Of a stretch of DNA of 64,000 nucleotides, positions 7,558 through 10,084 are shown one piece after another. The DNA lies in assembly GCA_903862845.1 (NCBI GenBank), contig CAIOZS010000103.1, positions 6,187 to 70,186 on the forward strand, in the 5' to 3' direction. The notes beneath the pieces were generated by a model. It saw only the letters and a list, made by a program, of their open reading frames with translations, searched no databases and was not told the DNA's origin. The stretch comes from an uncultured Thermoleophilia bacterium. GTDB taxonomy: Bacteria; Actinomycetota; Thermoleophilia; UBA2241. The translations under genes and the position numbers were made by a program. The stretch's first letter is position 1. Each line of letters opens with the position of its first letter.

Positions 7558-8166
7558 ATGAGCAGTCTCGCATCCTCCGAGGCGCAGACGCGTCCCTCGT
7601 TCTCGCGCCTGATCGGGAGCCGCGACTTCCGCCTGCTCTGGGGCGGCGAGGCCGTCTCCCTGATCGGCGACCAGTTCGAGCTGATCGCCCTGCCGTGGCT
7701 GGTCGTCACGCTGACGGGCAGCCCGGTGGCGGTCGGCGCCGTGCTCGCCGCGGCCGCTTTGCCCCGCGCCGTGCTCATGCTCGTCGGCGGCGCGGTCACC
7801 GACCGCTACTCGCCGCGCGCCGTCATGCTCGCTTCGAACCTCGCGCGGCTGGTTCTGACCGCGCTGTTTGCGGCGGTCGTCATCAGCGGTCGCGTCGAGC
7901 TCTGGATGGTCTACGCGTTCGCCCTCTCGTTCGGTATCGCCGACGCGTTCTTTTTTCCGGCGCAGACCGCGATCGTCCCTCGCATCGTGCGCAGCGACGA
8001 CCTGTCGCTCGGAAACACGGCGGTGCAGGGCACGGCGCAGGCCAGTCTGTTCATCGGGCCGGCGCTCGCCGGCGCGGTCATCGCGCTGTTCGCCGGCGGG
8101 TCGGGCACGTCGGCGATCCTCACGACCGAGGCCTCGGGAAGCAGCTTCTCCTGCGCCAGCAGGTAG
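7558..8166 (+). pseudogene. MFS transporter, 5' fragment only (about 6 TMS, truncated near 8120)
   Basis: MSSLASSEAQ..LLWGGEAVSLIGDQF..LPWLVVTLTGSPVAVGAV..GGAVTDRYSPR is a typical MFS N-half. The reading frame ends where the convergent DUF1214 remnant begins. No continuation is found in any frame. Confidence 0.6.
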
Positions 8167-9220
8167 CGCGAGACGAACACGCCTTGGGTGAGGCCCTGCG
8201 TGTCGATCCAGTTGGGCACGCCGGGGTCGGCGGGGGCGATGACGGCGTCGTAGGTGCCGTCACCGTTCAGGACGAGGTCGCGGTCGGTGAGGTAGCACTG
8301 CAGGCGCGGGTAGTCGAGCGTCGTCCACCAGCGGTCGTAGAAGACGAGGCTGGTGTACTTGGCCTTGGGCAGCCGACCGTGGAGCAGGAGCGCCTCGTCG
8401 GGCTTGAGATCGACGACTCGTAGGTGTTGTCCAGGGTCGGGAAGAGGGCGTCACCGTACTTGGGCTGGCGGTAGGTGGCGTCGGGCGGGCCGTAGGTGTT
8501 GGTGCCGCCCGCCCGGATCAGCTCCGTGAGCTCGATGGAAGAGAGCACCTCGGCCTCGAAGTACGACGCCGCCTTGGCGAGCCGCTCCACTGCGGGCAGC
8601 GGCTCGGCCGCCACGCCGTCGATGCGCTCGATGGTGACGTCCCAGCGGGTCCACGGCTCGTAGGAGTACACGCGGACCATGGCGACGTAGTCGTCGTCCT
8701 GGAGCGGCAGCCAGTGCGCGGCGCCCTCGGGGCGCTCGCCGCCGATGACCAGCTCGAAGCGCCCGTCCGGGCCGGGCGTGAGGTCGGCGCTGCTGATGTT
8801 GGCGCTGGGCGCGTTGAAGCCCTGGATCTGGCGATGGATCTGCACGCCCACGTAGTGGGCGCCGGCCAGCGGCCCGCGGATGCGGTACTGGTGCCGCGGG
8901 CTCACCGGCGCCGACAGGTACACGGTGCCCGGGTTGTCACCGCCGTACTTGCGCCACGGTTGCTGCCACTCGGTCCACGCAGGGGCGGCGGGGTCGCCCT
9001 TCTGGTACCACATCTCCGCGGCGAGGCTGAACGCCGCGAACAGGAAGTGCGGCTCGGCTCCGCTCCAGCTCGGGCAGGTCGTCGACCTGTGTGCTCACGG
9101 CGCCGGCCATCTCCTTCCAGCGCGGTGCGAGGCGGTCGAGAGCGAGCGGCGGCAGTGTCATGCGGGCTCTTTGGTCAGTACGTCAACGTATCTAGGACGG
9201 TCGTCCATGACACTTGACAT
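8117..9220 (-). pseudogene. DUF1214-family gene remnant (paralog of 1..917): internal deletion of the DUF1254 half plus a frameshift near 8420
   Basis: ORF 8267..9013 encodes ..GGDNPGTVYLSAPVSP..LFPTLDNTYE and then shifts frame. The true continuation VVDLKPDEALLLHGRLPKAKYTSLVFYDRWW..PNWIDTQGLTQGVFVSRYLLAQEKLLPEASVV is in another frame down to about 8117. Upstream, MTLPPLALDRLAPRWKEMAGAV aligns to residues about 230-250 of the full-length paralog, and the first 4 codons (MSSV, at 9220) match the locus-1 MFS start. Confidence 0.6.
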
Positions 9221-9451
9221 TATCCGTATCCTTCATATAGTCCGCAAGTCGATCAAAGCCACCTTTGGTACTGCGAAGACGCGAGAGGAACGCCCATGAT
9301 CCCCTCCCTCAGCTGGGCTCGCTGGGCCTGGTGGTGGACCAGTTCCTTGCGGCGTTGGTGCCCGTCTGAGAGTGTTCGCAGCCGACAGTTCCGCGTTCGT
9401 GCGGCCAACGTGGCGCCGGTAAGATGTACTGAAGAGACCTGCAGGAGGGGC

Positions 9452-10084
9452 AGGATGCCACGTCAAGTCGATTGGGACGAGCGGAGGGCTGAGCTCGCCG
9501 CGGCCGTCTGGCGCACGATCGCCCGGCGCGGCCTGGCCCACACGTCCATCCGCAACATCGCCGAGGAGTCGGGCTGGACCCGTGGCGTGCTCCAGCTCTA
9601 CTTCCGGGACAAGGGCGAGCTCATGCTTTACGCCTTCGAGCTCGCCTGCGACCACGCGATGGAGGTCAACTACCGGGTCGTCGGTGAGGCGAAGGGGCTG
9701 GAGGACCTGCGCAGACGGATGCTCGCGTACGCTCGTCCCGATGAGGAACAGCGCCAGGTGACCGAGGTCCTGACGGCGTTCGTGATGCGGGCCAAGACTC
9801 AGCCCGACCTGGCAGACGCGGCGCGTCGCAGGTACGGCGACTGGGTCGAGGTCACGCAGCGTCTGTTCCGCGGGCTCGACGCCCAGGGCGCGTTCCGTGA
9901 GGGCATCGAGCTCGAGCACGCGGCGCTCGAGTACTTCGCGCTCGCGATGGGGCTGGCGGAGCTCGACCTCATCGACGAGGACATGCTCGTCGGGATCGAT
10001 GCCGGGCGTCTGATCGACGGCTACCTGAGCAGGATCGGCTCGCCGGCCGAGCTCGAGCGGCTCGGCATTCAGCCCCGACACTGA
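9452..10084 (+). CDS. TetR-family transcriptional regulator (paralog of 2744..3385)
   Basis: MPRQVDWDERRAELAAAVWRTIARRGLAHTSIRNIAEESGWTRGVLQLYFRDKGEL; about 65% aa identity to the first copy. The upstream Met at 9296 is in-frame but unsupported. Confidence 0.8.
   Translation, partial: RMPRQVDWDERRAELAAAVWRTIARRGLAHTSIRNIAEESGWTRGVLQLYFRDKGELMLYAFELACDHAMEVNYRVVGEAKGLEDLRRRMLAYARPDEEQRQVTEVLTAFVMRAKTQPDLADAARRRYGDWVEVTQRLFRGLDAQGAFREGIELEHAALEYFALAMGLAELDLIDEDMLVGIDAGRLIDGYLSRIGSPAELERLGIQPRH

What the first reader, a model, noticed from the sequence alone, without database searches (positions are those of the whole stretch)
7558..10084. Deletion-scarred duplicate of the DUF1254/1214-MFS-TetR module
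Locus 1 (1-3385) is DUF1254/1214(-), MFS(-), TetR(+). Locus 2 keeps a 65%-identical TetR (9452..10084) and the same TTGACA-containing promoter motif (GACACTTGACAT at about 9209-9220 versus 2504-2515). It also keeps the first four MFS codons (MSSV at 9220). After those four codons the MFS body and the DUF1254 half are missing. What remains of the DUF1214 region is split by a +/-1 frameshift near 8420 (..LDNTYE | VVDLKPDEALL..). On the other side it abuts a truncated, unrelated MFS gene (7558..8166) lying convergently. This is a clear case of paralog decay by deletion plus frameshift.
Basis: seen in the sequence. Interest (0 to 1): 0.55.

Follow-up and report, generated by a model that had tools for sequence, protein, structure and literature searches.

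The report
Three adjacent decayed genes beside TetR
This stretch of an uncultured soil or freshwater actinobacterium (class Thermoleophilia) holds three neighbouring genes broken by small and large deletions, which is ordinary gene decay and not the wreck of a duplicated copy of the nearby transporter module.

Summary
The sequence features are real, and five independent metagenome assemblies reproduce them. The proposed history is mostly wrong.

**What window 6.9-9.2 kb holds: three consecutive pseudogenes**
- A TetR_C_14-type regulator gene (6962-7296, minus strand) has lost about 105 internal codons.
- An MFS_3 transporter gene (7558 onward, plus strand) is cut after codon 181 of 456.
- A stand-alone DUF1214 gene (9161 down to 8102, minus strand) has an intact start. 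It has lost its last 8 or more codons, fused tail-to-tail to the MFS_3 stump, and carries a 2-bp deletion (9049/9048) and a 7-bp deletion (8417/8416).

**Why it is not a copy of locus 1**
- The DUF1214 gene belongs to a family of about 364-aa proteins that never had a DUF1254 half.
- It sits in the same neighbourhood in relatives, so it was already resident there.
- Only the TetR genes are paralogous (64% aa). The duplication is old, because relatives carry both types.

**The "MSSV" codons**
- They are the reverse complement of a conserved element, ATGACACTTGACATT.
- This element holds the -35 box of the plus-strand promoter that reads toward TetR2.
- It recurs in relatives that have no MFS gene beside it.

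**Other points**
- Locus 1 has its own scar: the AI-2E transporter gene upstream of TetR1 is deleted.
- The 7-bp deletion is polymorphic in nature.

Interest is low.

The parts
6962..7296 (-). Pseudogene of a TetR_C_14-type (MftR-like) regulator. N-terminal residues 3-57 and C-terminal residues 163-224 are kept in different frames. About 105 internal codons are deleted near 7120-7131.
   Evidence: tblastn of the intact 241-aa protein of relative L041 (3375-4100, minus strand) matches window 7296-7132 (frame -2, 65%) and 7150-6962 (frame -1, 59%). There is a weak Pfam TetR_C_14 hit, E=0.052. blastn places window 7120/7131 against L041 3584/3929.
7558..8101 (+). 5' stump of an MFS_3 transporter gene: codons 1-181 of 456. 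The ORF then reads through non-homologous antisense DUF1214 sequence to a stop at 8164-8166.
   Evidence: Pfam MFS_3 E=5.8e-18, profile positions 11-166 of 524. Intact 456/462-aa alleles at 88-94% identity diverge from the window after ...LFAGG. L041 carries the intact gene.
8100..8106 (.). Deletion junction that fuses the two convergent genes tail to tail. It lies in a short shared CGG(G/A)C microhomology.
   Evidence: The window matches the intact MFS_3 of L041 up to 8100 and the DUF1214 3' region of L012 from about 8102. Both parental sequences carry CGGGC or CGGAC at this point. blastn homology to L012 stops at 8102.
8102..9161 (-). Pseudogene of a stand-alone DUF1214 protein (family length about 364 aa). 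The start codon at 9161 is intact. The last 8 or more codons and the stop are lost.
   Evidence: The reconstructed protein hits Pfam DUF1214 (E=1e-8). Full-length homologs are 75-80% identical. tblastn of P0004 gives q49-249 at 9019-8417 and q252-356 at 8417-8103 in different frames. L012 is 89.8% nt identical over 8102-9220.
8416..8417 (-). Site of the 7-bp deletion (GGCTTCT, codons for ..E[GF]F..). It is polymorphic in the natural population.
   Evidence: Contig L005 is identical over window 9660-7801 except for 1 SNP and these 7 bases. L012 and L006 also carry the 7 bases. The 248-aa allele (with the deletion) is on 28 contigs and the 369-aa allele (without it) on 10 contigs.
9048..9049 (-). 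Site of a 2-bp deletion (GG) that cuts codons 1-38 off from the rest of the DUF1214 gene. All close alleles seen share it.
   Evidence: DNA alignment with L012 and L006. Protein alignment shows ELERSRAA|.FLFAAF. L005 has it too.
9207..9241 (+). Conserved element ATGACACTTGACATT (9207-9221), containing the -35 box of a plus-strand sigma-70-like promoter, TTGACA-16-TATAGT (9214-9241), that reads toward TetR2. It is the probable TetR operator. Its reverse complement reads 'MSSV'.
   Evidence: Promoter scan scores 11 of 12. An exact copy lies 164 nt upstream of the TetR2 ortholog in L031. Copies in L012 precede AI-2E-TetR, a CLC channel gene and the DUF1214/cytochrome b pair. Only 2 copies occur in the window.
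9455..10084 (+). Intact TetR2 (TetR_N + TetR_C_6), an old paralog of TetR1. It is probably co-transcribed with the THAP4-like heme-binding gene (10101-10745) and AA_permease (10742-12115).
   Evidence: Pfam. 64% identity to TetR1. Separate ortholog group of 207-209 aa. Gene calls and Pfam on identical contigs.
2504..2566 (+). Locus-1 counterpart: motif at 2504-2516, promoter TTGACA-17-GATAGT (2509-2537), and an inverted second copy, CCACTTGACA on the minus strand at 2557-2566.
   Evidence: The same architecture is conserved upstream of the AI-2E-TetR operons in L011, L012, L015 and L016.
2610..2709 (+). 3'-terminal remnant (..VFYQSQYADAAEQAAAAE..VE*) of an AI-2E_transport gene that has been deleted from locus 1, just upstream of TetR1.
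   Evidence: tblastn of the L011 AI-2E protein, residues 361-379, hits 2611-2667. DNA alignment with five relatives. blastn places 2610-3354 against L012 7836-8602. TetR1-type orthologs follow an intact 390-aa AI-2E gene in L033 and L034.

Best explanation
Window 6.9-9.2 kb is a run of three dead accessory genes in an uncultured Thermoleophilia bacterium.

**Inferred ancestral order**
PadR-FMN_red-Flavodoxin_2 (+), TetR_C_14 (-), [a second FMN_red-Flavodoxin_2 pair in some relatives] (+), MFS_3 (+), convergent DUF1214-only (-), promoter/operator, then TetR2-THAP4-AA_permease (+).

**Lesions in this lineage**
1. An internal deletion of about 0.3 kb in the TetR_C_14 gene.
2. A deletion of about 1 kb, joined at a 5-bp microhomology. 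It removed MFS_3 codons 182-456, the spacer, and the last codons of the DUF1214 gene, fusing the two genes tail to tail.
3. A 2-bp deletion in DUF1214 codon 39.
4. Most recently, a 7-bp deletion in DUF1214. It is still polymorphic in the population.

**The regulators**
TetR2 is intact. It is an old paralog of TetR1, not part of a recent segmental copy. The shared 13-15-nt element is the -35 region, and probably the operator, of the promoter that drives each TetR gene. Both regulators recognise similar DNA, so the element recurs across their regulon. Its reverse complement happens to read ATG-TCA-AGT-GTC.

**Shown:** the anatomy, the lesions, their reproducibility, the synteny, and the conservation of the motif.
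**Inferred:** the order of events, loss of function, and TetR binding to the motif.
For: - Identical sequence in 4 independent assemblies.
- The 7-bp indel allele L005 and allele counts of 28 versus 10 contigs.
- Full-length collinearity with 364-aa DUF1214-only homologs, with an intact N-terminus.
- Synteny of the DUF1214-only gene in relatives, and 89.8% nt identity to L012 over exactly 8102-9220.
- Intact 456-aa MFS_3 alleles and the intact TetR_C_14 gene in L041.
- Microhomology at the junction.
- Two TetR ortholog groups.
- The motif is conserved upstream of TetR2 orthologs and other regulon genes, and both window copies sit in plus-strand promoters.
- dN/dS of the remnant against L012 is 0.30, no higher than between two relatives (0.41). 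This is consistent with recent inactivation.
Against: - No contig was retrieved in which an intact MFS_3 and an intact DUF1214-only gene sit side by side. The ancestral order is pieced together from L041, L012 and two JGI contigs that each lack something.
- Two relatives (contigs of P0004 and P0006) have no MFS_3 at this position. MFS_3 could therefore be a later arrival that replaced the DUF1214 3' end in one illegitimate recombination event, rather than insertion followed by deletion.
- The 369-aa allele keeps residues 52-355 and might retain some activity.
- Operator function is not tested. The window motif is a direct TGACA repeat rather than a classic palindrome, and locus 2 lacks the inverted second copy seen in locus 1.
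Confidence: 0.85

Rival explanations
1. Locus 2 arose as a segmental duplicate of the DUF1254/1214-MFS-TetR module of locus 1. It then lost the MFS body and the DUF1254 half by deletion, keeping the first four MFS codons.
For: - The TetR paralogs are 64% identical.
- The identical 13-mer lies at a collinear distance (240 versus 246 nt) upstream of both TetR genes.
- Both loci carry a DUF1214-containing gene on the opposite strand.
Against: - There is no DNA homology outside TetR and the 13-mer.
- The DUF1214 gene starts at 9161 with its own conserved N-terminus, is collinear with 364-aa homologs, and resembles the locus-1 protein over only 36 residues.
- The gene is syntenic in relatives.
- The motif occurs in relatives with no MFS beside it.
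- In locus 1 the 'MSSV...' codons overlap promoter repeats that are conserved in relatives whose left-hand gene is a ferric reductase.
- TetR1 and TetR2 are separate ortholog groups.
Confidence: 0.04
2. The frameshifts and junctions are sequencing or assembly errors, and the genes are intact in the organism.
For: - High-GC MAG-type sequence.
- Some related MAG contigs from long reads (L010, L012, L015, L016) do show apparent frameshifts.
Against: - Four contigs from different samples, centres and assemblers are 100% identical across 7300-10200.
- The truncated 202-aa MFS product is on 30 contigs and the 248-aa product on 24 or more.
- The alternative 7-bp allele is itself seen on 10 contigs and still shares the other lesions.
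Confidence: 0.01
3. The DUF1214 remnant is still in use. The 369-aa form (starting at Met52, with a novel C-terminal tail) is a working protein, and the 7-bp indel acts as an on/off variant maintained in the population.
For: - Both alleles are common.
- Met52 is invariant in the family, and everything from 52 to 355 is retained in the 369-aa allele.
- dN/dS is not elevated.
Against: - The 7 bases are not a simple repeat tract of the kind that slips reversibly.
- The conserved helix before Met52 (FLFAAFxLAxE) is lost from the product.
- The tail is 65 residues of antisense MFS sequence.
- The flanking genes are also dead, and L041 has deleted the gene altogether.
Confidence: 0.06
4. MFS_3 and its TetR_C_14 regulator were never resident next to an intact DUF1214 gene. 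A single illegitimate recombination brought in foreign DNA already ending at MFS_3 codon 181 and replaced the DUF1214 3' end.
For: - Relatives carrying P0004 and P0006 have Flavodoxin_2 directly convergent with DUF1214, with no MFS_3.
- No contig with both genes intact was found.
Against: - L041, about 89% identical in the flanks, has TetR_C_14, FMN_red2-Flavodoxin2-2 and a full MFS_3 in the same place and orientation. MFS_3 was therefore resident in this sub-lineage.
- Intact alleles with an N-terminus identical to the window's exist (P0228).
Confidence: 0.12

Closest known systems
Bacterial pseudogenes formed by deletion and frameshift (deletional bias in accessory regions)
   Same: It shows small out-of-frame deletions (2 bp, 7 bp), internal deletions, and a microhomology-mediated deletion fusing two convergent genes. 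Different strains carry different deletions at the same locus (window, L041, L031).
   Different: Nothing mechanistically unusual. It is simply documented here in an uncultured Thermoleophilia population, with one lesion still segregating.
Stand-alone DUF1214 proteins of Actinomycetota (Pfam PF06742; for example the Mycolicibacterium 'DUF1214 domain-containing protein', P0068)
   Same: The reconstructed product aligns end to end, at 47-80% identity, with all invariant residues from Met52 to Pro344 present.
   Different: It is interrupted by two frameshifts and lacks its C-terminus and stop codon. The function of the family is unknown: a literature search gave nothing functional.
DUF1254+DUF1214 two-domain proteins (as in locus 1, 446 and 463 aa)
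   Same: It shares the short DUF1214 core motif (G.F.L......P....NWLP).
   Different: There is no DUF1254 domain in the remnant or in any of its full-length homologs. The architecture is different, and only 36 residues align.
TetR-family repressors with divergent or autoregulated promoters (TetR_N + TetR_C_6, BetI-like)
   Same: It is an intact regulator preceded by a conserved element that overlaps the -35 box. A paralog carries the same element. In locus 1 two inverted copies bracket the -10 box.
   Different: The ligand and the binding are untested. In locus 2 only one copy is present, and it is a direct TGACA repeat rather than a palindrome.

Membership tests
Segmental duplicate of locus 1 (DUF1254/1214-MFS-TetR module) | DNA or protein homology between the two loci extending beyond the TetR gene, into MFS and DUF1254/1214 | tested here: not met
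   blastn finds only 2733-3354 versus 9443-10065 plus a 13-mer. The intergenic regions do not align. MFS_1 versus the MFS_3 stump shows no similarity. DUF1254/1214 versus DUF1214-only aligns over 36 aa, E=0.009.
Segmental duplicate of locus 1 (DUF1254/1214-MFS-TetR module) | Recent origin: the TetR copies are each other's closest relatives | tested here: not met
   TetR2 has orthologs at 66-77% identity and TetR1 at up to 89%. The two are 64% identical to each other and fall into separate groups.
DUF1214 (PF06742), stand-alone form of about 364 aa | Pfam domain hit above the gathering score and full-length collinearity with family members | tested here: met
   36.1 bits against a cut-off of 25. 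Alignment A1 has 100 or more invariant columns retained.
DUF1214 (PF06742), stand-alone form of about 364 aa | Uninterrupted reading frame with its own stop codon | tested here: not met
   2-bp and 7-bp deletions and loss of the 3' end.
DUF1254+DUF1214 two-domain proteins | Presence, or a remnant, of a DUF1254 domain upstream of DUF1214 | tested here: not met
   There is no DUF1254 hit in the reconstructed protein, whereas window 3-917 hits DUF1254 at 2.8e-40. The homologs carry only PF06742.
MFS_3 (PF05977) transporter | Domain hit and a full set of 12 membrane-spanning helices (about 456 aa in the closest alleles) | tested here: not met
   The domain hit is significant, but only profile positions 11-166 of 524 and codons 1-181 of 456 are present.
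TetR family regulator (TetR_N + TetR_C_6) | Both domains present in an intact ORF | tested here: met
   TetR2 hits TetR_N at 1.6e-7 and TetR_C_6 at 1.5e-8. The identical protein is called on 57 collection blocks.
TetR operator / sigma-70 promoter | Conserved sequence at promoter position across orthologs, and a consensus -35/-10 pair | tested here: met
TetR operator / sigma-70 promoter | Binding by the regulator and ligand-dependent derepression | not testable with these tools
   Needs EMSA, footprinting or reporter assays.
TetR_C_14 (MftR-like) regulator | Homology to an intact family member and an intact ORF | tested here: inconclusive
   Homology to the L041 protein is clear for the two ends (E about 1e-15 each). 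The Pfam hit is below the cut-off (13.9 versus 22.7 bits), and the ORF is broken.

The most novel reading that the evidence does not exclude
The region around the TetR1/TetR2 regulon is a deletion hot spot in a natural Thermoleophilia population. Independent deletions appear in different strains: the window; L041, which lacks DUF1214-TetR2-THAP4 and the 5' part of AA_permease; L031, with a 67-aa THAP4/AA_permease fusion stump; and the window's locus 1, which lacks AI-2E. Several rearrangement breakpoints fall right beside copies of the 15-nt promoter/operator element. The repeated element may therefore itself promote module shuffling and loss.
Probability: 0.12. Interest if true: 0.45.

Novelty: new member of a known kind. 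Interest (0 to 1): 0.22.

Why it matters
**For annotation**
- 7558-8166 and 8267-9013 should not be called as genes.
- 'MSSV' is not an MFS remnant.
- The MFS_1 gene of locus 1 probably starts downstream of its annotated ATG.

**For biology**
- It is a small, clean natural example of stepwise gene decay. One lesion (the 7-bp deletion) is still segregating in the population.
- It gives a candidate operator, ATGACACTTGACATT, for an uncharacterised TetR_C_6 regulon in uncultured Thermoleophilia.
- It opens no long-standing question.

Tried and rejected
1. Alignment of the two TetR upstream regions and an inverted-repeat search gave no extended homology and no palindrome in locus 2.
2. An Rfam search of 1-14000 found no RNA family in the long TetR2 leader or in 6801-7557.
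3. A homolog search with the MFS_3 stump returned only hits at 64% identity or less, mostly fragments. The context of the best hit, P0121, is unrelated. The intact alleles turned up only through the cluster look-up.
4. I looked for the missing MFS_3 C-terminal half or a second DUF1214-only copy elsewhere in the window, and found none.
5. I looked for a DUF1214 3' remnant downstream of the intact MFS_3 in L041, and found none.
6. A literature search for DUF1214/DUF1254 function gave nothing useful.
7. A 1-mismatch motif copy at 13979-13988 has no promoter context and is within chance expectation.
8. DNA for the contigs of P0004, P0006 and P0192 was unavailable, so only their gene tables were used.
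Full report
**1. What is in the sequence**

The window is about 70% G+C.

Locus 1 holds:
- a DUF1254/DUF1214 gene (3-917, minus strand; Pfam DUF1254 at 2.8e-40);
- a 527-aa MFS_1 gene (932-2515, minus strand);
- TetR1 (2744-3385, plus strand).

Locus 2 holds:
- a 202-codon MFS_3 ORF (7558-8166, plus strand);
- DUF1214-like reading frames on the minus strand;
- TetR2 (9455-10084, plus strand).

TetR1 and TetR2 are 64% identical in protein and 72% identical in DNA over 2733-3354 versus 9443-10065. 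Apart from that, the only shared DNA is the 13-mer GACACTTGACATT at 2504-2516 and 9209-9221. These are its only two copies in the window, even with two mismatches allowed.

**2. The lesions are real**

The exact TetR2 protein is listed in 57 blocks of the public collection. Four contigs from different samples and assemblers (L001-L004) are 100% identical to the window over 7300-10200.

**3. What the DUF1214 remnant is**

Stitching the three minus-strand frames together gives a 355-residue product. It aligns end to end with a family of about 364-aa proteins that carry only PF06742, at 75-80% identity to the nearest members. The N-terminus is present, with the ATG at 9161.

A Thermoleophilia genome assembled from a metagenome (MAG; contig L012) matches window 8102-9220 at 89.8% nt identity. 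Codon-level DNA alignment shows two small deletions in the window:
- GG lost between 9049 and 9048;
- GGCTTCT lost between 8417 and 8416.

Contig L005 is identical to the window over 9660-7801 except for one SNP, and it still carries the seven bases. In the 90%-identity cluster, the 248-aa product (with the 7-bp deletion) is on 28 contigs and the 369-aa product (without it) on 10. The 7-bp deletion is therefore a recent, segregating event. The 2-bp deletion and the 3' fusion are older and shared by all close alleles.

The locus-1 DUF1254/DUF1214 protein aligns with this family over only 36 residues (E=0.009). No DUF1254 signal is present. Nothing is missing between 9220 and 9013.

**4. The tail-to-tail fusion**

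Intact alleles of the MFS_3 gene (456 or 462 aa, 88-94% identical, one with an N-terminus identical to the window's) diverge from the window right after ...LFAGG, codon 181.
- On the plus strand the window matches the intact gene of L041 up to 8100.
- On the minus strand it matches the DUF1214 gene of L012 down to about 8102.
- Both parental sequences carry CGG(G/A)C at that point.

A microhomology-mediated deletion therefore removed MFS_3 codons 182-456, the spacer, and at least the last eight DUF1214 codons.

**5. A third pseudogene**

Relative L041 is about 89% identical in the flanking genes. Between Flavodoxin_2 and MFS_3 it carries an intact 241-aa TetR_C_14-type regulator on the minus strand and a second FMN_red-Flavodoxin_2 pair.

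The window keeps only part of that regulator:
- residues 3-57 at 7296-7132;
- residues 163-224 at 7150-6962, in a different frame (weak Pfam support).

The window also lacks the second flavodoxin pair.

**6. Synteny and origin**

Two JGI contigs carry 364-aa homologs with the order AdeGlyc ... PadR-FMN_red-Flavodoxin_2, then the convergent DUF1214 gene, which is divergent from AA_permease-TetR_C_6. The DUF1214-only gene is therefore an old resident of this neighbourhood.

TetR homologs split into a 213-aa TetR1 type and a 207-209-aa TetR2 type. The closest named relatives are uncultured Thermoleophilia MAGs. TetR2-type genes usually follow a transporter gene, either AI-2E_transport or AA_permease. 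TetR1-type genes follow an intact AI-2E_transport gene (L033 and L034).

**7. The shared motif**

Both window copies lie in plus-strand sigma-70-like promoters that point at the TetR genes:
- TTGACA-16-TATAGT at 9214-9241;
- TTGACA-17-GATAGT at 2509-2537.

The 15-mer ATGACACTTGACATT lies 164 nt upstream of the nearest TetR2 ortholog (L031, 77% aa), where the upstream gene is unrelated.

In L012, copies precede three transcription units:
- the AI-2E-TetR operon;
- a CLC channel gene;
- the divergent DUF1214/cytochrome b pair. Here the copy lies 46 nt from the DUF1214 start, the same distance as in the window.

In locus 1 and in four relatives the -10 box is bracketed by inverted copies, CCACTTGACA ... 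TGTCAAGTGG. I infer that this element is the operator of these paralogous repressors.

'MSSV' is simply its reverse complement. In locus 1 the first ten annotated MFS_1 codons overlap TGACAG repeats. Those repeats are conserved in relatives whose left-hand gene is a ferric reductase. The real MFS_1 start is therefore probably downstream.

**8. Locus 1 is scarred too**

Window 2610-2709 is the last 33 or so codons of an AI-2E_transport gene. The promoter and leader up to 2566 are kept, but the gene body is gone.

**9. Other strains**

- L041 lacks DUF1214-only, TetR2, THAP4 and the 5' part of AA_permease.
- L031 keeps a 67-aa stump made of the THAP4 N-terminus fused to the AA_permease N- and C-termini.

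Independent deletions at one locus point to relaxed selection on this accessory region.

dN/dS of the remnant against L012 is 0.30, compared with 0.41 between two relatives. This fits recent inactivation. The evidence is weak, because L012 comes from long reads.

**10. Verdict**

The interpretation of decay by deletion plus frameshift is right, but the 'duplicate of the locus-1 module' reading is not supported. This is ordinary pseudogene formation. Its useful by-products are corrected annotation and a candidate operator.

Noticed in passing
window 2610-2709 (+): This is the remnant of the 3' end of an AI-2E_transport gene, just upstream of TetR1. The promoter and leader (2504-2566) are retained but the gene body is deleted. 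Locus 1 is therefore itself deletion-scarred.
   Followed up: yes
window 6962-7296 (-): This is a TetR_C_14-type regulator pseudogene with about 105 internal codons deleted. It lies divergent from the MFS_3 stump. The second FMN_red-Flavodoxin_2 pair seen in L041 is absent from 7399-7557.
   Followed up: yes
window 2485-2515 (-): The first 10 annotated codons of the 527-aa MFS_1 gene (MSSVSVICHF) overlap TGACAG/TTGACA promoter-operator repeats that are conserved in relatives with a different left-hand gene. The true start is probably Met11 or later.
   Followed up: partly
L031 1492-1695: Downstream of the nearest TetR2 ortholog, a 67-aa ORF fuses the THAP4 N-terminus to the AA_permease N- and C-termini. 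This is an independent deletion scar in a related strain.
   Followed up: partly
L041 7372-8112: A relative with intact MFS_3 has lost DUF1214-only, TetR2, THAP4 and the first 195 or so codons of AA_permease. It also has a further internal AA_permease deletion (window 11474-11796 is missing).
   Followed up: partly
L030 5578-6000: The TetR1 ortholog (89% aa) is preceded by a PLDc_N/SHOCT gene. That gene ends in the same ...GGTCGAGTAG tail and spacer as the AI-2E genes elsewhere, which may mark another fusion scar.
   Followed up: no
window about 14800-17100: Strain variation begins after 14822 (L001 diverges there). An ISAzo13-type DDE transposase gene lies at about 15865-17103 in the window-type contigs.
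   Followed up: no
window 13979-13988 (-): This is a one-mismatch copy of the operator core (CCACTTGACG), in the spacer after the Abhydrolase_9 gene. It has no promoter context and is within chance expectation.
   Followed up: partly
window 9248-9454 (+): The leader between the predicted TetR2 promoter and the start codon is unusually long, about 200 nt. It has no Rfam match and no homology to the L031 leader except the last 45 or so nt.
   Followed up: partly
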